Source: an uncultured Spirochaetota bacterium
GTDB lineage: Bacteria > Spirochaetota > Brevinematia > Brevinematales > JAOACQ01
Length of the DNA stretch: 64,000 bases
Direction: 5' to 3'
NCBI GenBank assembly: GCA_963835575.1
Contig: CAWIGG010000006.1
Coordinates: 96,001 to 160,000, forward strand
Shown here one piece after another: positions 1,219-58,689 of the stretch (the first letter of the stretch is position 1; each line of letters opens with the position of its first letter). The notes beneath the pieces are model-generated. The model was given only the letters and a program-made list of their open reading frames with translations, did not search any database and was not told the origin of the DNA. The position numbers were made by a program, and so were the translations under genes.

Positions 1219-2863
1219 CCCGGATTATTCACCTGAAAAAAAGTATAAAAAAAGCCGCGTAACTTTACTCTTTATGATATAATTAATTGCGACCTAAAAA
1301 TACCCCAAAGAGGAGATACGCGGTGAAAACAGTATGTCATAAACAAGAAGAAAAATCAAGCGGTTTTGCCTTTTTAGGCAAGACTATTGAGATGGACTGG
1401 AACGGCGGCGACATATCCACTGACGGCGGGCTGTTTCTGGTATCCGGGCTCTTAAAAAAGACCGGAATTATCAATAGAATATCCGGTTGTATTGAGGATT
1501 GCAGGGACCAGGACCGGATAATTCATGAAATGAGTGAATTGATCGGACAACGGGTCAGCCAAATGATCATGGGGTATGAAGACACCAACGACGCGGGAGT
1601 ATTACGGTATGACCCGATGTTTAAATTCGCGGCAGGGCGTTTACCTGAAAGCGGAGATACCCTGTCCAGCCAGCCGACGCTGTCCAGGCTTGAGAACAGC
1701 ATAAACCTTCGGGATATAACGAAGCTTGATTTCTGTATGACGGACTGGTACATTGACAGCTTGATAGAGCGTAAAGCGGAAAGTGTTGTTCTTGACATAG
1801 ACGGCACGGATGATCCGACGCATGGTAAACAGGAAGGAAGCCTGTTCAACGGTTTTTATGAACAAACGATGTACTCACCGCTGATTGTTTGTGACGGAGA
1901 TACCGGAGACCTTGCGGCGATTAAACTGCGGCAGGGAAACGCGGGTCCGGCAAAGGACGCGCTTGCTATGATCAGGAGAATTGTTTTGGCAATAAGGAGG
2001 CGACAACCGGAGATCCGGATAATCCTGCGAGGTGACGCCGGATTTGAAAACCCGAAGATATACGAATATTGCGAACAAAATGATCTCCATTATATTCTGG
2101 GAATAAAGGGTTACCGGAGATTGGAGAAGAGGACAAGAAAGCTATCCCGCAGGGCAAAGACATATTTTCAAAAAAGCGGGAAAGAAAAGACGCTTCATAC
2201 GAATTTCAAATACCGTGCACAAAGCTGGGAAAAAGAACGAATGATTATCGCCCGGATACGCTGCAATGAATTGGGACAGGACACCCGTTATCTGATAACC
2301 AATTGGAAATTTTCAAAGGCAAGGTATGCATACAGATTCTATGCGAAGCGTGGAGATATGGAAAACCGGATCAAGGAACTGAAAAAGGATATGAATCTTG
2401 ACCGTTTGAGCTGCCATCGATATATGGCAAATTATTTCCGGCTGATTCTTGCGGGTTTTGCCTATCAATGCATGCAGCGCTTAAGGAAGGGATTGAAAGG
2501 TACAGAATATGAGAAAGCGCAAGCCGACACTATACGGTTAAAAATTCTGAAAGTTGCTGTACAGGTAAAAGAAACAGTCCGGAGAGTATGGCTGCATTTT
2601 TGCTCAAGTTTCACTGAAAAAGCGGTATTTCAAAGGCTCTCGGACAGCTTTGCGTAATGAAAGCCTTTCTGGATGTTTTTGACTCCGCTTAAAGAAGGGG
2701 GAAACTGCGCCCTTGTAACTGCAAAAAACAGATTTTTGAAAAGTTAGAAAGGATTGGACGGAAAAACGGAAGGTTAACTGACAAATTTATGCGGCCGCTT
2801 GAACAGCCGGGCAGTTTTTTATAGAAAATACACCCTCTGTGGGGGTGAGATGAATAATGCGGG
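1219..2863 (+). mobile_element. IS1380-family insertion sequence, copy 1 (1645 bp)
   Basis: TIR CCCGGATTATTCA / TGAATAATGCGGG; matches reverse copy at 51872-53516; only 3-bp ATA shared by the flanks. Confidence 0.93.
1323..2657 (+). CDS. IS1380-family DDE transposase
   Basis: Motifs GGDISTDGG, LDIDGTDD..HGKQEG, LRGDAGF, RGDMENRIKE; likely GTG start after GAGGAG (ORF track begins at 1287). Confidence 0.95.
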   Translation: MKTVCHKQEEKSSGFAFLGKTIEMDWNGGDISTDGGLFLVSGLLKKTGIINRISGCIEDCRDQDRIIHEMSELIGQRVSQMIMGYEDTNDAGVLRYDPMFKFAAGRLPESGDTLSSQPTLSRLENSINLRDITKLDFCMTDWYIDSLIERKAESVVLDIDGTDDPTHGKQEGSLFNGFYEQTMYSPLIVCDGDTGDLAAIKLRQGNAGPAKDALAMIRRIVLAIRRRQPEIRIILRGDAGFENPKIYEYCEQNDLHYILGIKGYRRLEKRTRKLSRRAKTYFQKSGKEKTLHTNFKYRAQSWEKERMIIARIRCNELGQDTRYLITNWKFSKARYAYRFYAKRGDMENRIKELKKDMNLDRLSCHRYMANYFRLILAGFAYQCMQRLRKGLKGTEYEKAQADTIRLKILKVAVQVKETVRRVWLHFCSSFTEKAVFQRLSDSFA

Positions 2864-7544: not shown

Positions 7545-7571
7545 CCGCTAAGCCGCGCGAAGTCACGCCAA
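7545..7571 (+). repeat. solo triple-unit arm of the CGCTAAG type
   Basis: CCGCTAAG CCG CGCGAAG TCA CGCCAA matches the left arm at 16671-16698. Confidence 0.55.
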
Positions 7572-7603
7572 TAATTAAAAAGTATTCTTGAAAAATTAAT
7601 AAT

Positions 7604-7685
7604 TTCACACAGGGCCCACAGAGTTCGCGGAGCTATAATAAAGATTAACTTGAAAACTCTGTGTCCTCTGTGAACTCTGTATGAA
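7604..7685. repeat. empty triple-unit inverted-arm cassette (CACAGAG type)
   Basis: Left TTCACACAGGG CCCACAGAG TTCGCGGAG; right CTCTGTGTC CTCTGTGAA CTCTGTATGAA; 24-nt spacer. Confidence 0.7.
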
Positions 7686-11802: not shown

Positions 11803-12354
11803 AACCACAGATTACACAGATGTCACAGATGATAATTTTGAAAGTATCAGTGTAATTATGCTATAATTGTGAATATGAAAAAAGAAGAAAGTAAAGATCG
11901 TCGGGCTTATGGGATTATTGGTGCGGCTATTGAGGCACACAAAGAATTAGGATCAGGATATCTGGAAGCAGTATATTAGGAAAGCCTTGAATTAGAATTT
12001 AAACTCAGAAAAATCCCTTATATATCTCACCCCATTCTTAAGGTTTTTTATAAAGATATTGAACTGAAAAAATATTATGTGCCTGATTTTATCGTATATA
12101 ATGAAGTGATTCTGGAAATTAAAGCGGAAAGATGTTTGACGAGAGTAGATGAGGCGCAAATAATAAACAGTTTAAAGAATTCGGGAATGAAAGTAGGTTT
12201 GCCGATTAATTTTGGTGAAAGCTCATTAAAATTCAAACGTTTTGTTTACTGAAACATATTTCATATTTCGTTTATTGTTAATAGAATGAATTCGAATTGA
12301 GATTTAATATTGATACCACAGAAATAATCTGTGAAATCAGTGAAATCTGTGGTT
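11803..12354 (+). mobile_element. GxxExxY cassette bounded by triple-unit inverted arms (CACAGAT type)
   Basis: Left AACCACAGAT TACACAGAT GTCACAGAT (11803-11830); right ATCTGTGAA ATCAGTGAA ATCTGTGGTT (12327-12354). Confidence 0.6.
11875..12252 (+). pseudogene. GxxExxY protein gene with in-frame TAG
   Basis: Translates MKKEESKD..HKELGSGYLEAVY*ESLE..PDFIVYNEVILEIKA..EAQIIN..INFG; TAG at 11977-11979 where the paralog has CAG; absent from the ORF track. Confidence 0.88.
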
Positions 12355-16103: not shown

Positions 16104-16655
16104 ATGCTAGTACCGGCTGTATTAGGCGGCATTGTTGTAGTGATATTGCTCTGGGTGATGATGGCTTATAACGGTTTTATCAAGCTGAGGAACCAGGCGG
16201 ATGAATCCTGGAGCGGTATAGACGTCCAGCTCAAGCGGCGCTATGACCTGATCCCGAACCTTGTGGAAACCGTCAAAGGCTACGCCAAGCATGAGCAGTC
16301 CACTTTCGAGAAAGTGGTCCAGGCCAGGAACGCGGCCATGAGCGCCCAGAAAGTGGAAGATAAAGCCCAGGCGGAGAACATGCTTTCAGGCGCCCTGAAA
16401 TCTATTTTTGCCCTCGCTGAAAACTATCCGGAGCTCAAGGCGAACCAGAATTTCCTCGATCTGCAGAAGAACCTGGCGGAAATTGAGGACCAGCTCCAGA
16501 ACGCCAGAAGATATTACAACGCCGTTGTCCGCGACTATAATATCCAGTGCGAAAGCTTCCCGTCTGTCATACTTGCCGGCATGTTCGGCTTCAAAAAACG
16601 GGCCTTCTTTGAAATAGCGGAAGCCGAAAAGCAGAATGTCAAGGTGCAGTTTTAA
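16104..16655 (+). CDS. lemA: LemA family protein
   Basis: YN..IKLRN..DESWSGIDVQLKRRYDLIPNLV, AENYPELKANQNF, ARRYYN. Confidence 0.96.
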   Translation: MLVPAVLGGIVVVILLWVMMAYNGFIKLRNQADESWSGIDVQLKRRYDLIPNLVETVKGYAKHEQSTFEKVVQARNAAMSAQKVEDKAQAENMLSGALKSIFALAENYPELKANQNFLDLQKNLAEIEDQLQNARRYYNAVVRDYNIQCESFPSVILAGMFGFKKRAFFEIAEAEKQNVKVQF

Positions 16656-16670
16656 AGGGAACTGGGTTAT

Positions 16671-17141
16671 CCGCTAAGCCACGCCAAGGAACGCTAAGAA
16701 GAATATATAATTGGTAAAAAAAATGGCTGAAGATTTATTATTTAAGGAAGAAGTTTTTAAAATCATGGGTTGTGCTATGAAAGTGCAGGATGAGTTAGGG
16801 AACGGTTTTCTGGAAGCGGTTTATCAGGAAGCTTTAGAAATTGAATTAAAGCTCATGCAAATCCCTTTTGAATCTCAGAAAAGACTGAGAATTAATTATA
16901 AAGGACAGCTGCTTCAAAAAGAATATATTGCCGATTTAATATGCTTTGACAAAATAATATTGGAATTGAAAGTTGAAGAGAAGCTGACTTCTATTGATGA
17001 AGCTCAGATTTTAAATTATTTGAAAGTTACGGGTTTATCGCTTGGACTCATTATAAATTTCGGATCAAAGAAGAAACTTGAGTGGAAACGTTTTGCAAAC
17101 ACTCAACAATAACCTTAGCGTATCTTCGCGATCCTTAGCGG
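16671..17141 (+). mobile_element. GxxExxY cassette bounded by triple-unit inverted arms (CGCTAAG type) inserted between lemA and the DUF2207 gene
   Basis: Left CCGCTAAG CCA CGCCAAG GAA CGCTAAG (16671-16698); right CTTAGCG TAT CTTCGCG ATC CTTAGCGG (17114-17141); lower GC than lemA. Confidence 0.65.
16723..17112 (+). CDS. GxxExxY protein (PD-(D/E)XK nuclease-like)
   Basis: LGNGFLEAVYQEAL, ADLICFDKIILELK, EAQILNYLK..G.IINFG (ORF track start 16711 TTG). Confidence 0.93.
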   Translation: MAEDLLFKEEVFKIMGCAMKVQDELGNGFLEAVYQEALEIELKLMQIPFESQKRLRINYKGQLLQKEYIADLICFDKIILELKVEEKLTSIDEAQILNYLKVTGLSLGLIINFGSKKKLEWKRFANTQQ

Positions 17142-17175
17142 GAGCCCCGAAAGTGTTATAGGGAAGGAGTTGTTT

Positions 17176-18900
17176 ATGAAAAGATTTTTTATATTTATAT
17201 TTCTGTTTCTTTCAATATCCCTTTCTTACGGCGAATATTTCAGCATTAAAGATTACAATATCCATGTCAAAGTCCTGAAAGACGGTGTACTGGACATTAA
17301 CGAAAGAATTTCCGTCACTTTTACCGAGCCCAGGCATGGTATTTTCAGGGATATTCCATACGGCTATACTATCACAAAGGCGCAAGGAGGCGAATCGGCC
17401 GAATATCCACTTCTTTTCGGGGATCGATATCAGGACCTTCTTTATGACATTTCGGTCCAGAACTTTCATTATCAGGTGGAAAAAAACAATGCCATGATCC
17501 GCATCCGGATCGGTTCCAAAAACGCTTATGTGGAGGGCGACCAGGTTTATATTATCAATTATAAAGTTTATGGAGAGGTCCGGAGATTCAACGATTATTC
17601 CGTAATTTACTGGAACCTGACCGGCAATGAATGGCCGGTTGAAATAGATTATGCGGTGTTCTCAATGGAACTGCCTTCCTCAGTCCCGTTAAGCTCAAAG
17701 GATTATAGAATTTATTCCGGGGTATACGGCTCGAAGGAAAACGACGCCTGCTATTATAAATATGAAGCGGATGAGCTTTCCGGAAGGACAATCCGGGCTT
17801 TAAATCCGAATGAGGGAATAACCGCCTGGATCAAGCTTCCGAAGGATTATTTTGTAAAAAATGATATACTGGACAAACTTTTATGGCTTCAGAACAACTC
17901 GGGGCTGTTCGCTATCATTATACCTTTTTTAGTGCTGATCATCGCGTTTCTGGTCTGGAACAAATACGGGCGCGATGTAAAGATCGTGAAAATGGTCCAG
18001 TTCAAACCGCCGGAAGATATGACGCCTGCGGAGGCGGGGGTCATCATCGATGATGTGACGGATAACAGGGATGTTCTGTGCCTGATCTATTACTGGGCGG
18101 CGGCCGGGTATCTGGAAATAGAAGAGCTGGAGAAGGGGACGCTCTTCAAATCAAAAGACTTCAAATTGATTAAAAAGAAAGAACTGCCGGACAACGCTAA
18201 AGAATACGAGAAAACCATGTTCAATGGGCTTTTTGAGGGAAAAGAGACGGAAGTCCTGATCAGTTCGCTCAAAGACACTTTTTATACGACTTTCGACAGC
18301 GTTAAAAGCCAGCTCAATGATTATATCGGCAGTCAGGCTTTTTATACGCCGGGTTCGCGCGGCCTCCGCGCTCTCTTTATATTCCTTGCCATGGTCTTTG
18401 TTTTCGGCGGATTTTTCCTGACGTTTTTTGCCGGATGGAGCGCTCTTTATATCGCTTCGGGTATTGTATCGGCGGTCATTTTAATTATTTTCGGGATTTA
18501 TATGCCAAAGAAGACAGCTAAAGGCCTTGAGAAATACAAAGTCCTTGAAGGTTTCAAACTTTTTATTGAAAAGGCTGAAAAGCCGAAGCTCGAGGCCCTT
18601 ATGAAAGAAGACCCGAATTATTTTGACAGGACGCTTTCCTATGCCATAGCGTTCGGAATGGGCGATAAATGGGCCGCGAAATTCGCCGGCATTATCACGC
18701 AGCCGCCTTCGTGGTACCATGGGCACAGCTTTACCGCTTTCTCCACGGCGTATTTTATCAGCTCGCTGAACTCGAGCATCTCCGGTATGAGCTCGACGAT
18801 GACATCCCGCCCTTCCAGCAGCGGCTCAAGCGGCGGCGGCGGATTTTCCGGCGGAGGAGGCGGGGGCGGGGGCGGGGGCGGGGGCGGAGGCAGCTGGTAG
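17176..18900 (+). CDS. DUF2207 family membrane protein
   Basis: Signal peptide, HGIFRDIP, YWNLTGNEW, TPAEAG, YAIAFG, C-terminal SSGGGGFSGGGGGGGGGGSW. Confidence 0.93.
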   Translation: MKRFFIFIFLFLSISLSYGEYFSIKDYNIHVKVLKDGVLDINERISVTFTEPRHGIFRDIPYGYTITKAQGGESAEYPLLFGDRYQDLLYDISVQNFHYQVEKNNAMIRIRIGSKNAYVEGDQVYIINYKVYGEVRRFNDYSVIYWNLTGNEWPVEIDYAVFSMELPSSVPLSSKDYRIYSGVYGSKENDACYYKYEADELSGRTIRALNPNEGITAWIKLPKDYFVKNDILDKLLWLQNNSGLFAIIIPFLVLIIAFLVWNKYGRDVKIVKMVQFKPPEDMTPAEAGVIIDDVTDNRDVLCLIYYWAAAGYLEIEELEKGTLFKSKDFKLIKKKELPDNAKEYEKTMFNGLFEGKETEVLISSLKDTFYTTFDSVKSQLNDYIGSQAFYTPGSRGLRALFIFLAMVFVFGGFFLTFFAGWSALYIASGIVSAVILIIFGIYMPKKTAKGLEKYKVLEGFKLFIEKAEKPKLEALMKEDPNYFDRTLSYAIAFGMGDKWAAKFAGIITQPPSWYHGHSFTAFSTAYFISSLNSSISGMSSTMTSRPSSSGSSGGGGFSGGGGGGGGGGGGGGSW

Positions 18901-19051
18901 AAAGAAATAATTCACAGGAAGGCGGGAAGACGGGAAGACGGGAAGGTTTTTAATGATTTATTTATTTTCATTGCCGTTCAAGTTATAAATTTATTAAACT
19001 GTGATTTGCTAGAAATTTGAAAGAACCGGAATTTCACACAGAGTGCACAGA

Positions 19052-20752
19052 CAGACTGTGTGAAAAAGGCGGTGTAAGACAATAAAGGCGGAGAAAAATC
19101 CTCAAATTTATTTTAATAAGGTATAATATGTAATCAAATTTGAGGTGTGTAAGATGAACCATATAACAGGAGAGCCAAGAGACCAGATAGTACTTTACGC
19201 GGAAACTATTGATGGTTTGATAGAAGAGAAGAACCCTGTAAGAATTATAGACGCATATGTGAGCAGACTAAACATCAGGAGGTTGGGATTCAAAATTAAA
19301 GAGGCGAAAAAAGGGCGTCCATCCTACACAGCGGATGTATTGTTGAAAATATATATTTACGGATATTTGAACAAAGTCAGGACCACGAGGAAATTAGAAA
19401 ACGAATGTAAAAGGAATACGGAACTGATATGGCTGACCTGCCGCTTAGCGCCTGATTTTAAGACCATAGCGGATTTCAGAAGGGATAATATTAAGGGCAT
19501 AAAAAACATTTTCAAAGAGTTTTTGAAAGTATGCCGCAAATTAGAACTGCTGACATTTAAATTAACAGCGACAGATGGAACGAAAATAAGTGGGCAAAAC
19601 AGTCTGGGTAATATTTATAGGCGGGAAAGCATTGAAGGAGTTGAGAAAAAGATTAATGAAAAAATAGACAAATATCTTTTGGAATTGGATAAAAATGATA
19701 AATCGGAAGAAAACGAGTTTGAGTTTTTATCCAGCAACATTGAAAAAAAGCTGGACAGCCTCAAGACAAGAAAAGAAAAAGTAGAAGCGATAAAAAAAAT
19801 GTTTGAGGCCGATCCGGAACTTGAAATCGTTTACGGGAATGATCCCGACGGCAGAATTGGGAAAGATAAAGGGAAAACGGATGTTTTGTACAACGCGCAG
19901 ATAGCAGTGGACGAAAAGAATAAATTGATTGTCGCGGTGGATGTAACCAATGAAAGTAATGATGTTCATCAAGCGGGAAATATGGTTAATAAAGTTGAAG
20001 AAATAAAGAAAGAACTTGAAGCCGAACCGGGATTAAAAACCATACATGTCCTGGATGCCGGATATTATTGCGAAAGTGAGATATTACCGCTTACAGACGG
20101 GGGTCATGAAATCTATATTCCAAGCCCGCGCGATGAAAAAGAAAAAAAGTCCAGGTACAAAGAGCAGCAGAAAGAAAGTATCCCGGCAAAAGGATATCTG
20201 GCAGAAGATTTCAAGATTGATAAAGAGAAGAACCAGTTGATTTGTCCGCAAGGATTACGATTAAATAATCAAAGTGTATATCAGGATAAAAACACGGGGA
20301 TTACTGTAGCGGAATTCAAGTGCAGGAACGAGAATTGTGAGAAGAAGCATTTATGCACAAAAAGCAAAGAAGGCAGGACGGTAAAGTTATCGGTGCGAAA
20401 GGAAGATATGGATAAATTCGATGAGAAGGTCCGAAGTGAATTGGGGCAAAAGATTGTTGCAATCAGAAAAGAGTTGGCAGAACATCCATTTGGAACAATA
20501 AAAGGAAATTTTGGTTATAATAATTTCTTGCTGAAGGGGATTGATAAAGTAAAAAGCGAGTTTAATTTCACGGCATTTATCTATAATTTTAAAAGAGTTC
20601 TGAATATTGCTGGTTTTGATAAGTTATTAGCCGCAATATAGTCTGAATTTCAATGATTATCAGTAATTTTTTATTCAGGCTCTTCTTTAAAGTAAGCAGG
20701 AACCTTTAGATGCCTGATCTTATAAATGTATTCTCTTTTTTCACACAGTCTG
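19052..20752 (+). mobile_element. IS1182-family insertion sequence
   Basis: TIR CAGACTGTGTGAAAAA / TTTTTCACACAGTCTG; 3-bp duplication AGA. Confidence 0.9.
19154..20641 (+). CDS. IS1182-family transposase
   Basis: GRPSY..LLKIYIYGYL..TRKLE, PDFKTIADFR, TDGTKI, YNAQIAVD, LDAGY, AEHPFGTIK (ORF track start 19145). Confidence 0.95.
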   Translation: MNHITGEPRDQIVLYAETIDGLIEEKNPVRIIDAYVSRLNIRRLGFKIKEAKKGRPSYTADVLLKIYIYGYLNKVRTTRKLENECKRNTELIWLTCRLAPDFKTIADFRRDNIKGIKNIFKEFLKVCRKLELLTFKLTATDGTKISGQNSLGNIYRRESIEGVEKKINEKIDKYLLELDKNDKSEENEFEFLSSNIEKKLDSLKTRKEKVEAIKKMFEADPELEIVYGNDPDGRIGKDKGKTDVLYNAQIAVDEKNKLIVAVDVTNESNDVHQAGNMVNKVEEIKKELEAEPGLKTIHVLDAGYYCESEILPLTDGGHEIYIPSPRDEKEKKSRYKEQQKESIPAKGYLAEDFKIDKEKNQLICPQGLRLNNQSVYQDKNTGITVAEFKCRNENCEKKHLCTKSKEGRTVKLSVRKEDMDKFDEKVRSELGQKIVAIRKELAEHPFGTIKGNFGYNNFLLKGIDKVKSEFNFTAFIYNFKRVLNIAGFDKLLAAI

Positions 20753-20967
20753 AGAGAGCACAGAGTAAGCTATAATTCTTTATCTGCATAAGATTAAACA
20801 ATATCCCTTTGTACTCCGTGTTCTCTGTGCGGGAAAAATAATTTTTTAGGATTCTGAAACATTATTTTTTTGCTGTCTAAATTGCAATTTCAAATCTGGA
20901 AATTAAATTTTATTTCTAAAATCTCCAGATTTTTCTTCGTGTCTTCCCGCCTTCCTGTAAAACCCGT

Positions 20968-21363: not shown

Positions 21364-21411
21364 GACGGCCTCCTTTTTATTTATTGCCTATTAATCTAAT
21401 CTAATCTAATC

Positions 21412-28847: not shown

Positions 28848-28962
28848 TTCACAGGAAGACGGGAAGATACAGAGATCAATTTATGACAAACCGCCTTATT
28901 CCTTCCCGCCCCTTCAATGCGCTGCGCTTACTCAGGACATCGCTTCCCTTCTTCCTGTTAAA
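28848..28962. repeat. empty GGGAAG-type inverted-arm cassette with an interrupted right arm
   Basis: Left TTCACAGGAAG ACGGGAAG; right CTTCCCGC [about 33 bp] CTTCCCTT CTTCCTGTTAAA. Confidence 0.55.
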
Positions 28963-29020: not shown

Positions 29021-30540
29021 GTAACTATCCAGCCACTAAAAAATAGTCACATGAAATATTTGCATTGAGCATGAAACCATGCTATTCTATAGCATGAATG
29101 AAGATAGAAGAGAAAAAGACTGTGCGGCCTGCTTAAAACGATTTGAAGGCATCATTGCTGATTTACAAAACCAGATAAAGGAGCAGGGTTTAATCATTCA
29201 AAGACAAGCGGAAAAGATTAAGAAATTGGAAGAACAGCTTAATAAGGACAGCCATAACAGCAATAAACCGCCGTCTTCCGATAATCCATTCCAAAATACA
29301 GTAAAGAATTTACGGAAAAAGAGCGGTAAAAAACAAGGCGGCCAGTTTGGACATAAGGGAAATACTCTGAAGAAAGTAGAAAGCCCTGATAAGATCATAG
29401 AACATCAGGTTGAAAAATGTTCCTGTTGTGGAATTGATTTAAGTTCCGAATCAGTTAAGCGGACGGAAAGAAGGCAGGTGTTCGATATACCTCCGATAAA
29501 AGTGGAAGTTACCGAACATCGCTCGGAAGTAAAAGATTGTCCGCATTGCGGTGCGAGAGTAACGGCGGAGTTTCCGGAAGGCATAACCAATAAGGCACAG
29601 TATGGAAAAAACATTAAAGCGCATCTGGTCTATATGAAAACATATGGGTTGATACCCTATGAAAGGCTTTCGGAATACGCCGAATGTTTATTGGGAGTGC
29701 CGCTCAGCAAGGCAACGATTGAAGGATTTATCCGGGAGACCTACAATAAATTAGAAGAGTATGAACAGAAAGTCATAGAACTGATACTAAAAGAAGTGGT
29801 TCTTCACTGTGATGAAACCGGTATTCGGATAAAAGGGTTATTAAAATGGCTCCATGTTGCCTCGAATGAACGTTTTACCTATTATTTTTCTCATGACAAA
29901 CGCGGCACAGAGGCGATGCGTGCGATGGACATTCTCACAAGATTTACCGGTATTATTATCCACGATGGATGGAAAAGTTATCTGGAATTCTTATGCCGTC
30001 ATGGATTGTGTAATGTACACCATTTGAGAGAGCTAATCTGGATACATGAGGAAATGGGTCAGGAATGGGCTAAGGAGATGGGTAATCTTCTTATAAGGAT
30101 TAAGAATGATAAAGAGGCAAGTTTTCCAATACCGGCGGAAAGGATTATAGAATATGATACGGAATATGACCGGATCATCGCGAAAGGATTTGCTGTAAAT
30201 CCAACGCCTGAAAAGCCGGAAGGACTTGTTAAACGCGGCAGAAAAAAGCGGGGCAAGGTTTTATGCCTATTAGACCGATTAAGAAAATATAAAGAATCTG
30301 TCCTTTTATTTATGCGGGAAAAAGATGTTCCATTCAGCAACAATTTGGCGGAACGGGATATCAGAATGATAAAAGTCCAGCAGAAAATATCAGGTACATT
30401 CAGAAGCTGGAATGGAGCGGCTGCCTTTTGCAGAATCAGGGGTTATATATCTACAGTAAAAAAGATGGGCGTCAGTGTTTATCAAGCCCTTATTGACGCG
30501 TTGAACGGCTCCGCTATTAAATATGCGGCTGGATAGTTAC
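29021..30540 (+). mobile_element. IS66-family insertion sequence (single-ORF type)
   Basis: Perfect TIR GTAACTATCCAGCC / GGCTGGATAGTTAC; 8-bp target duplication TAATATTC (29013-29020, 30541-30548). Confidence 0.95.
29079..30536 (+). CDS. IS66-family transposase
   Basis: NSNKPPSSD, GGQFGHKG, zinc ribbon, HCDETG, HGLCNVHHLREL, NNLAERDIR. Confidence 0.95.
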   Translation: MLFYSMNEDRREKDCAACLKRFEGIIADLQNQIKEQGLIIQRQAEKIKKLEEQLNKDSHNSNKPPSSDNPFQNTVKNLRKKSGKKQGGQFGHKGNTLKKVESPDKIIEHQVEKCSCCGIDLSSESVKRTERRQVFDIPPIKVEVTEHRSEVKDCPHCGARVTAEFPEGITNKAQYGKNIKAHLVYMKTYGLIPYERLSEYAECLLGVPLSKATIEGFIRETYNKLEEYEQKVIELILKEVVLHCDETGIRIKGLLKWLHVASNERFTYYFSHDKRGTEAMRAMDILTRFTGIIIHDGWKSYLEFLCRHGLCNVHHLRELIWIHEEMGQEWAKEMGNLLIRIKNDKEASFPIPAERIIEYDTEYDRIIAKGFAVNPTPEKPEGLVKRGRKKRGKVLCLLDRLRKYKESVLLFMREKDVPFSNNLAERDIRMIKVQQKISGTFRSWNGAAAFCRIRGYISTVKKMGVSVYQALIDALNGSAIKYAAG

Positions 30541-45320: not shown

Positions 45321-45662
45321 TTTATCCTCCTACGAAAAATTAAAAAATGAAGGGACATGGTGTACCGGGTCTGCCGGAATAGCGCATGAAATTACATCGC
45401 ATCTGCTATGTTTAAAATAATTCTGTTTTCAACCGTAATGGATTCGTTTAAATTATGATAATGCCCGATTAAATGATCCTTCAATATTTCACAAGCCCTA
45501 CTATGAGTGTTATCGCTGACCAAATGTGTAAAGGAATAGGCCTTATTGAAAATAAAATTATACGCTTCTTCCAATTTGATCTTTTCTTTCCATTTCCAAT
45601 CGGCTCCAGCTTTCTCAATATTGGGTTTTTCTACAGATTCGTTGAGCGAAGTTGTTGGCCAT

Positions 45663-46448
45663 CTATACTTGAGCTTCTACTTCCAATCTTTTCATTTTAA
45701 CATGACAAATATTATTTTTATCTAAAGGATATTTTTGAATATAATCTTCAGCAATTTCATTAATTAAAATATTCTTCTCATTTTCTTGGACTCTTTGGAT
45801 ATAAGACGAAAATGCTGTTCTAATCCAGTCAAATAATCCTTCTTTTCCAATTTGCGTCATATCTTTATCTATTAACTCGACTCTTTTAGCTTTTAAGCCA
45901 GCTTCTAATATCCAGTTCATATATTCATCTTTATCAAAATACCAAAATAGATTTGTAAAATCTTTAAAATAACTTTTCCATTTCTCCTTTTTAATAATAT
46001 TTTCTACTATTGCAATTAAATCTTCTTGATTTCCTTTTCCACCCATCTGTAAAAAAACTTTTCCATCTGGTTTTAAAGCTTTTTTTATTTTTTTTAAAAC
46101 AGTTAACTGATCATTTATCCAATGAAGTGTTGCTGTCGAAAAAATAATATTAAATTCTTTTTCAAAATTAATATTCCTTGCATCTATAAATAGAAAATCA
46201 ATATTTTTATAATTTGATTTATTATATTTATTTTTTGAATAATTTATCATTTCTAATGAAGCATCTATTCCTAATATAAAACCTTGGGGAATTAATTTTG
46301 ATATTTCAGCAGTAATTATTCCATCACCACAACCAATATCTAATATTTTTTCAGTTCCTTTTAATGATAGTTTAGATATTAATTCAAAAGCCCAATATTT
46401 TTGTTGAGATGAACTTTTATTATAATCTTCAGGATTCCACTTAATCAT
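45663..46448 (-). CDS. class I SAM-dependent methyltransferase (trans-aconitate methyltransferase-like)
   Basis: W.PEDY, ILDIGCGDG, GIDAS, IFSTATLHW. Confidence 0.9.
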   Translation of the reverse strand: MIKWNPEDYNKSSSQQKYWAFELISKLSLKGTEKILDIGCGDGIITAEISKLIPQGFILGIDASLEMINYSKNKYNKSNYKNIDFLFIDARNINFEKEFNIIFSTATLHWINDQLTVLKKIKKALKPDGKVFLQMGGKGNQEDLIAIVENIIKKEKWKSYFKDFTNLFWYFDKDEYMNWILEAGLKAKRVELIDKDMTQIGKEGLFDWIRTAFSSYIQRVQENEKNILINEIAEDYIQKYPLDKNNICHVKMKRLEVEAQV

Positions 46449-46478
46449 TTAATTAACCTCCAAATCGCCAACAATTTC

Positions 46479-46641
46479 AGCTAACGGTGCGGCTTGGCGA
46501 CGTTTTGCGGTCCGAAGGACTGGCGCGACTTTTGCGTCCCACGCAGCAAAAGTCGTGACAGAGCCAAATGTGTCCGCAGGACCGAGGACCGCCCGGAGAC
46601 CGCAGTCGAGGACGGACCGGAGCGCTAAGCCGTCGTTGTGC
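46479..46641 (-). other. attC-like recombination site (163 bp)
   Basis: On the minus strand R'' GCACAAC ... R' GTTAGCT; GC-rich imperfect palindrome with CGACTTTTGC/GCAAAAGTCG stem. Confidence 0.75.
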
Positions 46642-46651
46642 GAAGTTGGCA

Positions 46652-47116
46652 TTAATTTTTGATAATTAATAAGTCTTCATTTGATGGTATTTCACCATTT
46701 TTATATTTATGTAAATCACAGTATAATAGCAATAAAATTATTGAACCAAATCTCAATTGTTTCCAGTTTTTTCCTTTTGATTCATCAATTAAATCTTTTG
46801 CATATTTAGCTAAATTTGGACATTGATCAGCTAACTTTCTTGATTCTTTAATTATAAAACCTTCATTTCCATTATTTATATGGTCTTGAAATTCTTTGAT
46901 AAATTCATCATCTTTAATATTATTTTGAAATCTTATTTTTGATGTTATTTGCATTGCGAGCATTTCTGCATCTTGTAAATTTGATAATTTACTTTGAACA
47001 TCAATTACATTAATATTTTTAATTTTTTCCCGGCTCATTTTTTTCATAACATTAGTAATTACCATAATTAGTATTATAACAACAACTATAAAACCTAATA
47101 CATAAATAAGAGTCAT
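46652..47116 (-). CDS. hypothetical membrane-anchored cassette protein
   Basis: GGAGG RBS, N-terminal TM helix, very low GC. Confidence 0.8.
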   Translation of the reverse strand: MTLIYVLGFIVVVIILIMVITNVMKKMSREKIKNINVIDVQSKLSNLQDAEMLAMQITSKIRFQNNIKDDEFIKEFQDHINNGNEGFIIKESRKLADQCPNLAKYAKDLIDESKGKNWKQLRFGSIILLLLYCDLHKYKNGEIPSNEDLLIIKN

Positions 47117-47200
47117 ATATCAAAACCTCCAACTAAAATTAATGCCAACTTCGCACAGACGGTGCGGCTATACGACGTGGCGGTGGTGTTTTTCTAATGT

Positions 47201-48100
47201 CTATTCTTCAATAAAATAATCCGTATCTACTTTGCTAATTTTAAAACTTCTTTTAATAGAAACACCCACTTCATTTTCAATCATTAATTCTGTCAATTTC
47301 TTTCCATCAATTAAAATTATAGCACAATCAATATTTTGTGCATATTCAAGTGCTTCTTTTGAAAATGAGGATGTTGTAATAAATATTCCTTTTTTAGCTC
47401 TTTTGCCTTGAAGTGCACCAACAAATTTTTGTATTTCTGGACAAACAACAACATTATCCCATTTTTTAGCTTGAAGATATATTTTATCTAATCCCAATTT
47501 ATCTTCCTTAATTATTCCATCAATACCTTCATCATTAGTTTTTTGAGTTACTTCACCATTTTCAATATCAGAACCACCATAACCAATTTTAATTAATAAG
47601 TCAACAACTAATTTTTCAAAAAAGTATGAAGAACCATCTTTTATTTGATTAATTAATTGGAGTGACAATTCATCCGTTATTTGTTTAAAGCCAATTTCAA
47701 TTAATTCATCTGGAGTTTTTTCCAATATTTCTTCACTGGTTTCTATGGAATCATCTTTATCTGGATTTTTATTTTTTGAAAAAGCAGGAAATTCTTTTAA
47801 AAATGAAATAGTTATTTTAACCGGTGGGCTTTTTAAAACCTTTTTACCGGTAATAGTAATTTGATATTCTCCTCTGCGTGGTGATGATATTAAATCAGCC
47901 TTTTTCAAATATGCCATAGCCCAGGCAACCCTATTATAATAAAGGGGCTGAGTACCGGAAGAAATCTTTTCTTTTTGTTCATCATCAGATATTTTAAAAT
48001 GGTTAATCATTTCTAATCTGATATCTCTATGTGTTTTTATTGTATCGTTCTTTAAAGCATTGAGCATTGGTAACATAATAGACTGAAAATCAGGTATCAT
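47201..48100 (-). CDS. mrr: Mrr-family restriction endonuclease
   Basis: MIPDFQSIMLP, NRVAWA..YL, FFEKLVVDLL..IGYG, DEGIDG, YLQAKKW, GIFITTS. Confidence 0.93.
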   Translation of the reverse strand: MIPDFQSIMLPMLNALKNDTIKTHRDIRLEMINHFKISDDEQKEKISSGTQPLYYNRVAWAMAYLKKADLISSPRRGEYQITITGKKVLKSPPVKITISFLKEFPAFSKNKNPDKDDSIETSEEILEKTPDELIEIGFKQITDELSLQLINQIKDGSSYFFEKLVVDLLIKIGYGGSDIENGEVTQKTNDEGIDGIIKEDKLGLDKIYLQAKKWDNVVVCPEIQKFVGALQGKRAKKGIFITTSSFSKEALEYAQNIDCAIILIDGKKLTELMIENEVGVSIKRSFKISKVDTDYFIEE

Positions 48101-48174
48101 AAGTATTTCTCCTTGAAAATATAATTCACCAGCCCACCGCCAGGTCGTCTAACTAATAATATATGAATAAAATA

Positions 48175-51871: not shown

Positions 51872-53516
51872 CCCGCATTATTCATCTCACCCCCACAGAG
51901 GGTGTATTTTCTATAAAAAACTGCCCGGCTGTTCAAGCGGCCGCATAAATTTGTCAGTTAACCTTCCGTTTTTCCGTCCAATCCTTTCTAACTTTTCAAA
52001 AATCTGTTTTTTGCAGTTACAAGGGCGCAGTTTCCCCCTTCTTTAAGCGGAGTCAAAAACATCCAGAAAGGCTTTCATTACGCAAAGCTGTCCGAGAGCC
52101 TTTGAAATACCGCTTTTTCAGTGAAACTTGAGCAAAAATGCAGCCATACTCTCCGGACTGTTTCTTTTACCTGTACAGCAACTTTCAGAATTTTTAACCG
52201 TATAGTGTCGGCTTGCGCTTTCTCATATTCTGTACCTTTCAATCCCTTCCTTAAGCGCTGCATGCATTGATAGGCAAAACCCGCAAGAATCAGCCGGAAA
52301 TAATTTGCCATATATCGATGGCAGCTCAAACGGTCAAGATTCATATCCTTTTTCAGTTCCTTGATCCGGTTTTCCATATCTCCACGCTTCGCATAGAATC
52401 TGTATGCATACCTTGCCTTTGAAAATTTCCAATTGGTTATCAGATAACGGGTGTCCTGTCCCAATTCATTGCAGCGTATCCGGGCGATAATCATTCGTTC
52501 TTTTTCCCAGCTTTGTGCACGGTATTTGAAATTCGTATGAAGCGTCTTTTCTTTCCCGCTTTTTTGAAAATATGTCTTTGCCCTGCGGGATAGCTTTCTT
52601 GTCCTCTTCTCCAATCTCCGGTAACCCTTTATTCCCAGAATATAATGGAGATCATTTTGTTCGCAATATTCGTATATCTTCGGGTTTTCAAATCCGGCGT
52701 CACCTCGCAGGATTATCCGGATCTCCGGTTGTCGCCTCCTTATTGCCAAAACAATTCTCCTGATCATAGCAAGCGCGTCCTTTGCCGGACCCGCGTTTCC
52801 CTGCCGCAGTTTAATCGCCGCAAGGTCTCCGGTATCTCCGTCACAAACAATCAGCGGTGAGTACATCGTTTGTTCATAAAAACCGTTGAACAGGCTTCCT
52901 TCCTGTTTACCATGCGTCGGATCATCCGTGCCGTCTATGTCAAGAACAACACTTTCCGCTTTACGCTCTATCAAGCTGTCAATGTACCAGTCCGTCATAC
53001 AGAAATCAAGCTTCGTTATATCCCGAAGGTTTATGCTGTTCTCAAGCCTGGACAGCGTCGGCTGGCTGGACAGGGTATCTCCGCTTTCAGGTAAACGCCC
53101 TGCCGCGAATTTAAACATCGGGTCATACCGTAATACTCCCGCGTCGTTGGTGTCTTCATACCCCATGATCATTTGGCTGACCCGTTGTCCGATCAATTCA
53201 CTCATTTCATGAATTATCCGGTCCTGGTCCCTGCAATCCTCAATACAACCGGATATTCTATTGATAATTCCGGTCTTTTTTAAGAGCCCGGATACCAGAA
53301 ACAGCCCGCCGTCAGTGGATATGTCGCCGCCGTTCCAGTCCATCTCAATAGTCTTGCCTAAAAAGGCAAAACCGCTTGATTTTTCTTCTTGTTTATGACA
53401 TACTGTTTTCACCGCGTATCTCCTCTTTGGGGTATTTTTAGGTCGCAATTAATTATATCATAAAGAGTAAAGTTACGCGGCTTTTTTTATACTTTTTTTC
53501 AGGTGAATAATCCGGG
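51872..53516 (-). mobile_element. IS1380-family insertion sequence, copy 2 (1645 bp)
   Basis: Reverse complement of 1219-2863; 4-bp target duplication CTAT. Confidence 0.95.
52078..53412 (-). CDS. IS1380-family DDE transposase
   Basis: Translation identical to copy 1 (ORF track start 53448). Confidence 0.95.
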   Translation of the reverse strand: MKTVCHKQEEKSSGFAFLGKTIEMDWNGGDISTDGGLFLVSGLLKKTGIINRISGCIEDCRDQDRIIHEMSELIGQRVSQMIMGYEDTNDAGVLRYDPMFKFAAGRLPESGDTLSSQPTLSRLENSINLRDITKLDFCMTDWYIDSLIERKAESVVLDIDGTDDPTHGKQEGSLFNGFYEQTMYSPLIVCDGDTGDLAAIKLRQGNAGPAKDALAMIRRIVLAIRRRQPEIRIILRGDAGFENPKIYEYCEQNDLHYILGIKGYRRLEKRTRKLSRRAKTYFQKSGKEKTLHTNFKYRAQSWEKERMIIARIRCNELGQDTRYLITNWKFSKARYAYRFYAKRGDMENRIKELKKDMNLDRLSCHRYMANYFRLILAGFAYQCMQRLRKGLKGTEYEKAQADTIRLKILKVAVQVKETVRRVWLHFCSSFTEKAVFQRLSDSFA

Positions 53517-57014: not shown

Positions 57015-58689
57015 TTGCCTGTCGGTTTTTATAACATGCTTCATGGACATACGGCAGGGTTCCCGTTAAAATAAAACGGGAGAAAAAGATGGCAAGATTT
57101 GAAAAGAACAGCCTGGAGCAGGGTGAGTTCCTCGCGATCAATATAGGCGAGCAGTTTGATGAGAATTCCAGAGAATTTATACTAAAAGAATTCATCAAAA
57201 ACCGTATTAAACTGGAGGATTTCGCGGCTTACTATAAGAACAACCATAGAGGCAGAGAGATTAAAAATCCTCGGGATGTGATCTGTGCGGTACTCTACGG
57301 TTACATTACGGGAAATCGTATCAGCCGAAAGATAGAAGATTTGCTGAAAAAACACATTGGGTTTATGTATGTTTCAAACCGGCTGAAAATTGACCATTCG
57401 GTAATTTGCGAGTTCAAGGTACTTTTTCAGGAAAAGATCGAGGAGTTGTTCAGCCAGCTTTTATATATACTCAACGAAATGGGGTCTATAGATTGGGACA
57501 TGGTAGTGGGTGACGGCACAAAGATCAAGGCCTACGCGAGTAAGAATAAGAATGTGGGAAAGAAACATACCCGGAAGCTGATGGACACTTACCAGAAGAT
57601 GGCGGAAAAGATTGTGAAACAAGACCTGGAACTGGAAGAATCTTACCGGGAAGGCAAGCTGGAGCAGCCTTATTACGAAGCGGAGAAGAAGCGGGTATCA
57701 AGGCGGAAAAAGATTTACGATAGTGTTTTGAACCAAATCGATGAATACAAAAAACAGGTAGAGAGAGGGGAAAAGACAGACGAAGAATTCACCAACCTGA
57801 CTGATCCCGAAAGCAAGCTGATGTCTGGAAATCCGCATAGTGTGTTTATACAGGGATATAATTCGGCGATGATGGTCAGTAATAATGATGTGATTATAGA
57901 TTTTGAAGCAATCACAACACCGGAAAAACAGCATACGGAAGAAATGGTAAAGAGGGTGGAACAGAAAAAAGCGGAATTAAAAGTTGATAAGGCTAGCAAA
58001 TACCTTTTTGATTCGGGTTTTCAGGACATGGAAGAGACAATCCGGATGGTGGAGGAAGGAAAAGACCTTTATGTGGATACGAAAGAGCGGGATTTCAGTG
58101 ATAAATCACAGAAGCGAAGAGACTTTAAACTGGAAAAGATTGATGACGAATATATCCTGGGATGCCGGGGCGGCCGTAAGGAAAATGGGTATTTAGATCG
58201 AAATAACCAAAGATATACATTTTTGTATTCACGGAAGGGCTGTGAAAGATGTCCATTTTTCAGTGAGTGTTATAAAAACATCAAACCGAAAACACAGCAA
58301 AAGACAGTAATTTTCAGTGAGTTTGAATTGAATAATCGGTCTAAGATTGATGCTTATTTAACAAAACTTTACAGCGAAGAAGGGCAAAAGATATACAACC
58401 GCAGGATAGGTAAAGAACACGTATTTTCAAACATCAAAACACAGAAGGGTTATGTTCAGACAGTTTACAGAGGTCAACGGAAAGTGAATTTGGAGCTATG
58501 CTGGGTATCCCTTGCGCATAATTTTATGAAATATGCCCAATATTTGAGAAAATAGAGAGGATTTTGTATAGTCTGAGTATCGATTATTCGAAATTTATTA
58601 TTAAAATCAGCTAAGCTGACAAAATTTTTATTTGCCCGCTTATTGTAAGGGGCTGGTTTGACTCCGAAAATGAAATAACCGACAGGCAA
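57015..58689 (+). mobile_element. IS1182-like insertion sequence
   Basis: TIR TTGCCTGTCGGTT / AACCGACAGGCAA; no target duplication seen. Confidence 0.8.
57089..58555 (+). CDS. IS1182-like transposase
   Basis: LYGYITG.RISRKIE, DHSVI, GDGTKIKAYAS, NLTDPES, QGYN, FDSGF, EHVFSNIK, AHN. Confidence 0.9.
   Translation: MARFEKNSLEQGEFLAINIGEQFDENSREFILKEFIKNRIKLEDFAAYYKNNHRGREIKNPRDVICAVLYGYITGNRISRKIEDLLKKHIGFMYVSNRLKIDHSVICEFKVLFQEKIEELFSQLLYILNEMGSIDWDMVVGDGTKIKAYASKNKNVGKKHTRKLMDTYQKMAEKIVKQDLELEESYREGKLEQPYYEAEKKRVSRRKKIYDSVLNQIDEYKKQVERGEKTDEEFTNLTDPESKLMSGNPHSVFIQGYNSAMMVSNNDVIIDFEAITTPEKQHTEEMVKRVEQKKAELKVDKASKYLFDSGFQDMEETIRMVEEGKDLYVDTKERDFSDKSQKRRDFKLEKIDDEYILGCRGGRKENGYLDRNNQRYTFLYSRKGCERCPFFSECYKNIKPKTQQKTVIFSEFELNNRSKIDAYLTKLYSEEGQKIYNRRIGKEHVFSNIKTQKGYVQTVYRGQRKVNLELCWVSLAHNFMKYAQYLRK

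What the first reader, a model, noticed from the sequence alone, without database searches (positions are those of the whole stretch)
16671..17141. Candidate undescribed mobile cassette: GxxExxY nuclease-like gene between inverted arms of three tandem units, inserted in an operon
Seen: the gene is tightly framed by three CGCTAAG-like units at 10-bp period and their inverted counterparts. The 3-nt linkers between units do not pair, so the units look like repeated binding sites or a periodically bulged stem. The cassette begins 16 bp after the lemA stop and ends just before the DUF2207 RBS. The same design appears five more times in the window with other units (CACAGAT, CACAGAG twice, GGGAAG twice), and four pairs have TATAAT inside the left arm. 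No transposase or clear target duplication is present. Established: GxxExxY proteins are PD-(D/E)XK-like and of unknown function, and lemA is commonly adjacent to DUF2207 genes. Inference: a minimal mobile or self-excising unit in which the protein recognises the arms in DNA, or the arms pair in mRNA to loop out the insert. I cannot verify novelty without a literature search.
Basis: partly seen in the sequence, partly recalled or inferred. Interest (0 to 1): 0.82.

Follow-up and report, generated by a model that had tools for sequence, protein, structure and literature searches.

The report
Nuclease gene with cognate repeat arms
A small nuclease gene of unknown function sits between two mirror-image arrays of a 7-base word, and it is one gene-carrying copy of a repeat system with about 480 arms at gene junctions of this genome, in which each nuclease subfamily travels with its own word, which gives this protein family a testable DNA target.

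Summary
A GxxExxY (PF13366/TIGR04256) gene with an intact Cas4/RecB-type active site lies between inverted arms of three 7-nt units, in a lemA-DUF2207 gap that is 520 nt here and about 8-70 nt in six other genomes. The genome holds 481 such arms in 8 families (reversed control: 2), mostly gene-less inward pairs, and 9 GxxExxY genes; 6 families have a cognate gene. Across phyla 101 of 143 homologues have flanking inverted repeats (displaced control 0 of 119), and arm word follows the protein tree. Six GxxExxY cassettes in two congeners sit at junctions that are tight in relatives, so they were inserted lineage-specifically. Best reading: a REPIN/RAYT- or Ssn/NTS-like nuclease-plus-repeat system on a different nuclease fold; binding and cleavage are untested. 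Not found in nine literature searches; this scan noted the class before on other DNA (25 findings).

The parts
16104..16655 (+). lemA, upstream host gene
   Evidence: PF04011 E 9.1e-65
16648..16661 (+). left copy of a 14-nt imperfect direct repeat (possible old target duplication; may be chance)
   Evidence: D3; not enriched family-wide
16659..16670 (+). family-conserved leader outside the left arm
   Evidence: consensus of 77 left arms
16671..16698 (+). left arm: three 7-nt units, period 10 (family A)
16706..16711 (+). TATAAT box 11 nt before the ATG; unit 2 of the arm lies where a -35 box would be
   Evidence: sequence; not called as promoter; not family-wide
16723..17112 (+). GxxExxY nuclease gene, 129 aa; invariant E31, D71, E81, K83, Q95, Y99
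17114..17141 (-). right arm: three inverted units, period 10
17142..17146 (-). family-conserved end outside the right arm (here with substitutions)
   Evidence: consensus of 67 right arms
17152..17165 (+). right copy of the 14-nt imperfect direct repeat, running into the DUF2207 ribosome-binding site
17176..18900 (+). DUF2207 membrane-protein gene, downstream host gene
   Evidence: PF09972, PF20990
11806..12351 (+). second cassette, CACAGAT arms (period 9) around a GxxExxY pseudogene (11875-12252, TAG at 11977)
7546..7572 (+). solitary family-A right-type arm
7608..7681 (+). gene-less CACAGAG arm pair
18915..20957 (+). GGGAAG arm pair enclosing a CACAGAG pair (19036-20829) whose left arm is split by an IS1182-like element (19051-20751)
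28852..28957 (+). gene-less, decayed GGGAAG arm pair

Best explanation
The feature is the gene-bearing form of a nuclease-plus-repeat system. Shown: gene and arms are inherited as one unit, insert just after a stop codon at operon junctions, and decay to gene-less arm pairs that keep the units while the interior erodes. Inferred: the GxxExxY protein is an active Cas4/RecB-type nuclease that reads the C-R-C-N-x-x-x units as tandem binding sites (position 4 and linkers free), brings or marks the two ends, and nicks DNA at or just outside an arm, most likely on transiently single-stranded DNA in the transcribed orientation. Having no covalent-transfer chemistry, it depends on host repair to paste the released piece at a new nick, often next to or inside an existing arm. 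It also acts in trans on gene-less pairs of its own family. Events are rare and old, as for REPINs.
For: Intact catalytic set invariant in 38 homologues; fold closest to Cas4 SSO0001 (Foldseek E 7.3e-5); dN/dS 0.03-0.09 in 9 of 11 pairs, other 2 saturated. Flanking inverted repeats at 101 of 143 loci against 0 of 119 displaced and 67 of 2000 cross-locus pairs; triple-unit pairs at 86 of 143 against 0 of 119. Arm word needs 31 changes on the tree against 54.4 shuffled and 48.7 shuffled within phylum; nearest other-phylum protein shares the word in 28 of 75 against 9.2 expected. Two closest homologues among 5.8 billion proteins are paralogues of this genome at unrelated sites with the same arm family. 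Empty orthologous junctions in congeners. Gene-less CACAGAT pairs keep the promoter and first codons of the gene; other gene-less pairs share interiors at unrelated sites. Right arms are followed by a left arm or remnant in 10 of 67 cases against 0.5% background, and 45 of 481 arms are stacked on an arm of another family. No covariation of partner arms.
Against: No binding or cleavage data. Co-inheritance follows from linkage alone and does not prove recognition. No recent copy, no general target duplication, no sharp ends. Hydrolytic PD-(D/E)XK nucleases do not rejoin DNA (own knowledge), so a step is missing. Some spread is passive: CACGAAG pairs lie inside IS1182-type miniature elements and three copies in G257 ride in a larger repeated segment. 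Some cassettes are stably vertical at one site (L036/L039, L040/L043, L132/L140). Six of 23 relatives with 3 or more arms had no gene found. 42 of 143 homologue loci fall under the repeat score, this locus (26) among them.
Confidence: 0.55

Rival explanations
1. Domesticated Ssn-like system: the protein binds and cuts at the arms for a host purpose (limiting recombination or incoming single-stranded DNA), while the arms are spread by other machinery such as IS elements, recombination or an unidentified transposase.
For: Strong purifying selection on old copies; units conserved while interiors decay; precedent of SsnA/NTS (PMC11893778); passive carriage seen; IS110 copies sit in arms 6 of 6 and IS1182 copies 5 of 7.
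Against: Patchy distribution (22 of 61 relatives have a match), many pseudogenes (3 of 9 here), cassettes at different sites in congeners and clades mixed across phyla; family-A pairs have no transposon ends beyond the arms.
Confidence: 0.22
2. RNA-level element like a 23S rRNA intervening sequence: the arms pair in the operon transcript into a long bulged stem that is cut out or that shields the host message, and the protein acts on that RNA or is a passenger.
For: The arms pair in the predicted minimum-energy and centroid folds; family-A left arms lie in the sense direction 33 to 14 (p 0.008); the left-to-right strand pairs about 2 kcal/mol better than its reverse in 32 of 37 pairs.
Against: Cognate partners match no better than permuted ones in any of four families and pair no more stably (-33.6 against -34.9 kcal/mol); in-register equals out-of-register identity, and G:U-type (27) and A:C-type (26) mismatches are equal in 207 unit pairs; whole-region fold z = -1.08; many pairs lie between convergent or divergent genes; no Rfam match; right-arm orientation bias is not significant (27 to 17).
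Confidence: 0.13
3. The arms are only operators: the protein represses its own promoter, and the module is a selfish or addiction-like passenger moved by generic horizontal transfer and illegitimate recombination.
For: Here unit 2 overlaps the -35 position of the TATAAT box; arms sometimes enclose other AT-rich genes, including a nucleotidyltransferase-HEPN pair.
Against: Does not explain a mirror arm after the gene, hundreds of gene-less inward pairs (85 inward same-type neighbours against 8 outward), or head-to-tail and nested stacks; the TATAAT box is not family-wide.
Confidence: 0.07

Closest known systems
REPIN/RAYT (REPtron) systems (10.1101/2022.05.22.493013; PMC3733652; PMC8266576)
   Same: Enzyme gene flanked by inverted repeats; hundreds of intergenic inverted pairs with conserved ends and variable spacer; singlets; several divergent enzyme genes each with its own repeat family; repeats targeted by IS elements.
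   Different: Enzyme is a PD-(D/E)XK nuclease, not an HUH tyrosine transposase; arms are tandem direct units, not palindromes, and lack GTAG/CGTC tags; the gene itself occurs at many sites and crosses phyla, whereas RAYTs are described as immobile and vertical.
Ssn (SsnA, GIY-YIG cd10448) with NTS/SRM repeats (PMC11893778)
   Same: Small single-domain nuclease flanked on both sides by its cognate repeat, which is also dispersed in hundreds of copies; no transposase; enzyme-repeat pairs diversify together.
   Different: Different fold; repeat is a three-unit array and not a 20-50-nt hairpin; activity here is untested.
ORF-bearing 23S rRNA intervening sequences (PMC4990558)
   Same: A 400-500-nt insert with a small ORF inside long inverted arms, acquired horizontally.
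   Different: Sits at mRNA gene junctions, not in rRNA; ORF is a nuclease, not S23p/four-helix bundle; arms show no covariation.
Cas4 / lambda-exonuclease / RecB-type nucleases (PDB 4ic1, 3slp, 4r5q)
   Same: Fold and E...D...ExK...QxxxY motif set.
   Different: 129 aa, no conserved cysteines for an iron-sulphur cluster, no CRISPR or helicase context, paired with repeat arms.
Insertion sequences with MITEs; transposon ends with several binding sites (Mu, Tn7; recalled, not from a call)
   Same: Autonomous-like and deleted non-autonomous forms; three tandem sites per inverted end.
   Different: No transposase, no general target duplication, no identical copies, ends not sharp.

Membership tests
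GxxExxY protein family (TIGR04256 / PF13366) | Score above curated cut-off over the whole model | tested here: met
   143.1 bits against 35; 139 bits against 22
Cas4/RecB-type PD-(D/E)XK nuclease | Fold and catalytic E, D, ExK, QxxxY residues | tested here: met
   invariant E31, D71, E81, K83, Q95, Y99; pLDDT 92; 4ic1 E 7.3e-5; Z 7.4, rmsd 5.2, 104 aligned
Cas4 proper | Conserved cysteines of the Fe-S cluster (recalled feature) | tested here: not met
   no cysteine among invariant or near-invariant columns
REPIN/RAYT | HUH tyrosine transposase gene between the repeats | tested here: not met
   enclosed gene is PF13366; only two weak PF01797 hits in the genome, flanks not inspected
REPIN/RAYT | Each half is a palindromic REP with a GTAG-type tag | tested here: not met
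   arms of 7 of 8 families fold no better than shuffles; family A modestly (-4.1 against -2.2); GTAG beside 4 and CGTC/TGTC beside 7 of 481
REPIN/RAYT | Many intergenic inverted pairs, conserved ends, variable spacer, singlets | tested here: met
REPIN/RAYT | Each enzyme copy linked to its own repeat family | tested here: met
REPIN/RAYT | Enzyme gene immobile and vertically inherited | tested here: not met
   cassettes at different junctions in congeners; clades mix phyla; some vertical cases exist
Ssn/NTS | GIY-YIG cd10448 protein | tested here: not met
Ssn/NTS | Gene flanked on both sides by a cognate repeat that is also dispersed | tested here: met
   101 of 143 loci; 481 arms; paper reports 42% for Ssn
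Ssn/NTS | Site-specific cleavage of single-stranded DNA at the repeat | not testable with these tools
   needs biochemistry
23S rRNA IVS | Located in an rRNA gene, ORF of the S23p type | tested here: not met
   lemA-DUF2207 junction, no Rfam match in the window
23S rRNA IVS | Stem conserved by pairing | tested here: not met
   no covariation
23S rRNA IVS | Excision from the transcript by RNase III | not testable with these tools
   no sequencing run was listed
Insertion sequence / MITE | Transposase gene inside the ends | tested here: not met
Insertion sequence / MITE | Target-site duplication | tested here: inconclusive
   12-of-14 repeat at this locus, no enrichment in 89 pairs, copies old
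Insertion sequence / MITE | Near-identical dispersed copies | tested here: not met

The most novel reading that the evidence does not exclude
GxxExxY cassettes are a class of mobile element whose only enzyme is a 130-residue PD-(D/E)XK nuclease that reads a three-unit code at both ends, mobilises itself, gene-less derivatives and occasionally foreign cargo genes into operon junctions without a transposase or recombinase, with many orthogonal protein-word pairs (at least six coexisting in this genome).
Probability: 0.3. Interest if true: 0.88.

Novelty: new variant of a known kind. Interest (0 to 1): 0.7.

Why it matters
GxxExxY/PDDEXK_3 is a widespread family listed as function unknown (PMC3424549 table). 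The arms give it a specific candidate substrate, with built-in cognate and non-cognate controls in one genome. If the protein cuts or moves the arms, this is a third enzyme fold, after HUH RAYTs and GIY-YIG Ssn, paired with a dispersed bacterial repeat, and bears on the open question of how such repeats spread without a transposase. Arms occupy 262 of 1775 long intergenic gaps here and are landing sites for two IS families, so they shape this genome. Very small nucleases with orthogonal 7-nt words could also be tools.

Tried and rejected
Homodimer prediction gave no answer. No solved structure by sequence (best E 0.022). No Rfam family. General target duplication rejected. Stem covariation and wobble bias rejected. 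Family-wide leaderless promoter rejected. In-genome paralogous empty sites: 2 candidate pairs found, both filled. Three near-identical copies in G257 looked like recent moves but share long flanks. Replichore bias looked at by eye only, no clear pattern. Viral contigs gave 8 loci, not analysed apart. Part was cut from view; only visible junctions are cited. Literature: nine answered full-text searches plus one search found no description of GxxExxY with repeat arms; subscription papers and bioRxiv supplements are not covered.

Full report
Observation. The inverted pair 16671-16698 / 17114-17141 (28 nt, 79%) is the best inverted repeat in 16500-17300. Each arm is three 7-nt units at period 10; the mismatches fall on five of six linker bases and on position 4 of the middle unit. 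The enclosed ORF is PF13366/TIGR04256, between lemA and DUF2207.

Protein. In 38 aligned homologues E31, D71, E81, K83, Q95 and Y99 are invariant, the motif set of RecB/Cas4/lambda-exonuclease nucleases (motif names from own knowledge). The model is confident (pLDDT 92). Foldseek ranks Cas4 SSO0001 first (E 7.3e-5); the wide search gives restriction-like folds at Z 7-8 with no clear winner. Selection is strongly purifying: dN/dS 0.03-0.09 in 9 of 11 pairs, the other 2 saturated. PMC3424549 lists the family as unknown (one passage read).

Genome-wide system. The 4.39-Mb genome holds 9 GxxExxY matches, 3 broken. By eye 8 show both arms and the ninth a left arm with a decayed right arm. A tight unit pattern finds 286 triple arms against 0 in 2 Mb of Markov sequence; eight family patterns give 481 distinct arms against 2 in the reversed genome. 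Only 15 of 392 loosely defined arms fall inside crudely called genes, and neighbours within 600 nt are inward and same-type 85 times, outward same-type 8 times. 262 of 1775 gaps of 100 nt or more hold an arm. Families A, B, C, D, E and one of the AAG types have a cognate gene here; the CACAGAG and CACGAAT families have none found. Family A, to which the finding belongs, has distinct left and right arms; left arms lie in the sense direction of co-directional neighbours 33 to 14 (p 0.008), right arms 27 to 17 (p 0.17).

Gene-less copies are derivatives. Several CACAGAT pairs keep the promoter box and first codons of the GxxExxY gene, and groups of family-A and family-D pairs share interiors at unrelated sites. 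Interiors are far more diverged than units. No whole element has a near-identical copy at a second unrelated site; the long high-identity hits were an IS110 beside arms and one duplicated segment. Right arms are followed within 40 nt by a left arm or remnant in 10 of 67 cases (background 0.5%), and 45 of 481 arms abut a same-direction arm of another family, giving mirror-ordered nested stacks, some around AT-rich foreign genes.

Insertion. Of 29 other lemA loci, six show lemA next to DUF2207, with gaps of about 8-70 nt and no GxxExxY gene, against 520 nt here; none is from the same genus, whose lemA genes are distant. In 63 metagenomic lemA loci with at least 600 nt downstream none has the gene, 10 have DUF2207. 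Congeners (about 74% DNA identity) give cleaner tests: the paralogous cassette on C4 spans 616 nt against 70-82 in 4 of 4 congeners; the C2 cassette 556 against 33-52 in 4 of 4; three gene-less sites 421, 246 and 651 against 112-121, 22-26 and 342-371 in 5 of 5 relatives including another genus. Conversely 4 of 5 cassettes of G002 lie at junctions of 3-19 nt in this genome; the fifth and the one G004 cassette tested had no tight orthologous junction. One junction holds a family-B pair here, a CACAGAT pair around another ORF in G002, and nothing in three others. Inserts begin shortly after a stop codon and carry 20-60 AT-rich bases beyond the arms; ends are not sharp. The two nearest homologues among 5.8 billion proteins are this genome's own paralogues (78%, 72%; next 69%), with homology confined to the cassette, but dS is 2.0-3.2: the moves are old. 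A 12-of-14 direct repeat flanks this cassette, yet 3 of 43 family-A pairs reach that range against 4% by permutation, so it is not evidence of a duplication rule.

Family survey. From 167 loci, 164 had a profile hit, 144 were full-length with enough flank, 143 distinct. 101 of 143 have an inverted-repeat score of 28 or more, against 0 of 119 displaced flanks and 67 of 2000 cross-locus pairs; 86 of 143 have matched triple arrays against 0 of 119. On a FastTree tree of 141 proteins (two duplicate G257 copies left out; 66 of 138 forks open) the arm word of 84 labelled rows needs 31 changes against 54.4 +/- 2.4 shuffled and 48.7 +/- 2.4 shuffled within phylum; the nearest protein from another phylum has the same word in 28 of 75 cases against 9.2 expected. 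Nine phase-shifted word types were labelled by hand, and all handle genomes were treated as one phylum. Our protein groups (support 92) with lentisphaeran, delta-proteobacterial and one unclassified protein that have the same period-10 word. In 61 related genomes, tallied by hand, 17 of 23 with three or more arms have a gene at E <= 1e-7, against 2 of 38 with fewer; this is partly circular and kin are not independent. Linkage explains co-inheritance without recognition.

Sites or stem. Cognate left-right partners match no better than permuted partners in families A-D (p 0.81, 1.0, 1.0, 0.34), in-register unit pairs equal out-of-register pairs at every position, and G:U-type and A:C-type mismatches are 27 and 26. 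Cognate duplexes are no more stable than permuted ones. So units are conserved as sequence, with position 4 and linkers free. For an RNA role: the arms do pair in the predicted fold (z -1.08 overall), and the left-to-right strand is about 2 kcal/mol more stable in 32 of 37 pairs. Single arms are not hairpins in 7 of 8 families.

Mechanism. I commit (0.55) to a nuclease that reads the units and nicks beside the arms, with host repair completing rare insertions, acting also in trans. Shown: anatomy, co-inheritance, lineage-specific insertion, decay series, selection. Inferred: binding, cleavage, single-strand preference, causal role in spread. Against it: no joining chemistry, passive carriage in IS1182-type miniature elements and in a larger repeat in G257, vertical cases. 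Rivals are a domesticated Ssn-like role (0.22), an RNA intervening sequence (0.13) and plain operators (0.07).

Known systems. It works like REPIN/RAYT and Ssn/NTS but fails membership in both on enzyme fold and repeat structure. Papers seen: PMC11893778 abstract, first part of Results and Discussion; 10.1101/2022.05.22.493013 abstract and introduction; PMC3733652 passages; PMC8266576 and PMC4990558 abstracts; PMC3424549 and 10.1101/2021.01.26.428298 one passage each. No supplements were read. The term GxxExxY occurs in 3 held papers, 2 listed, neither about repeats by the passage or listing seen; the other searches found no description. The scan's own notes record the class in at least 25 genomes; they are leads, and gave me the Ssn paper. 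The host phylum name (spirochaete) comes from a scan note and was not tested.

Verdict. Real, widespread, apparently undescribed pairing of an uncharacterised nuclease family with its own repeat code; this copy is an old insertion, not a shown self-excising unit. New variant of a known kind; interest 0.70.

Noticed in passing
window 19051-20751; genome-wide: IS1182-like element, 1701 bp: 5 of 7 full copies sit in or at the centre of CACAGAG arms; the window copy has a 3-nt duplication, the others show none. About 100-bp miniature elements share its ends, and several CACGAAG arm pairs are enclosed by these ends.
   Followed up: partly
G000 C2:670498, 1052417, 1646240; C5:166014, 351036; C6:240857: All 6 copies of an IS110-family element are inserted at the same position between units 1 and 2 of GGAAG-type arms.
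   Followed up: partly
L314 (G000:C4:995501-997800); L328: Mirror-ordered nested stacks of four or more arm families around an AT-rich DUF2971 gene; similar one-sided stacks at C5:413119-414967.
   Followed up: partly
L311, L312, L313, L315; L295 (G002): Arm pairs enclosing other genes, mostly AT-rich: ClpP-like SDH protease, two unknown proteins, a nucleotidyltransferase-HEPN pair, and a broken membrane-protein ORF in G002; cargo capture or later insertion not distinguished.
   Followed up: partly
G000 C5:37894, 148078, 431974; C6:334849: A different small inverted-repeat element of roughly 60-250 bp lies inside the interiors of four arm pairs.
   Followed up: no
L063, L085, L088 (G257): Three 98%-identical GxxExxY cassettes inside what looks like a remnant of an IS91-type transposase gene (family recalled from its cysteine motif, not tested).
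   Followed up: partly
L042, L078, L095, L135: A GxxExxY clade with a different, longer flanking repeat that the triple-unit pattern misses.
   Followed up: no
window 46467-46642 and 45640-48153: Long GC-rich inverted-repeat-like tract between AT-rich genes (methyltransferase, unknown, Mrr); resembles cassette boundaries.
   Followed up: no
window 21364-21410: Short 5-nt tandem repeat between an AAA ATPase gene and a small unknown gene.
   Followed up: no
window 1287-2657, 52078-53448, 29079-30536, 57089-58555: Further transposase genes: two DDE_Tnp_1_4 copies, one IS66, one second IS1182-like.
   Followed up: no
G000:C6:2181-2498: One four-helix-bundle (PF05635) gene in the genome; flanks not inspected.
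   Followed up: no
L183-L190: Eight viral contigs carry GxxExxY genes, several with arms.
   Followed up: partly
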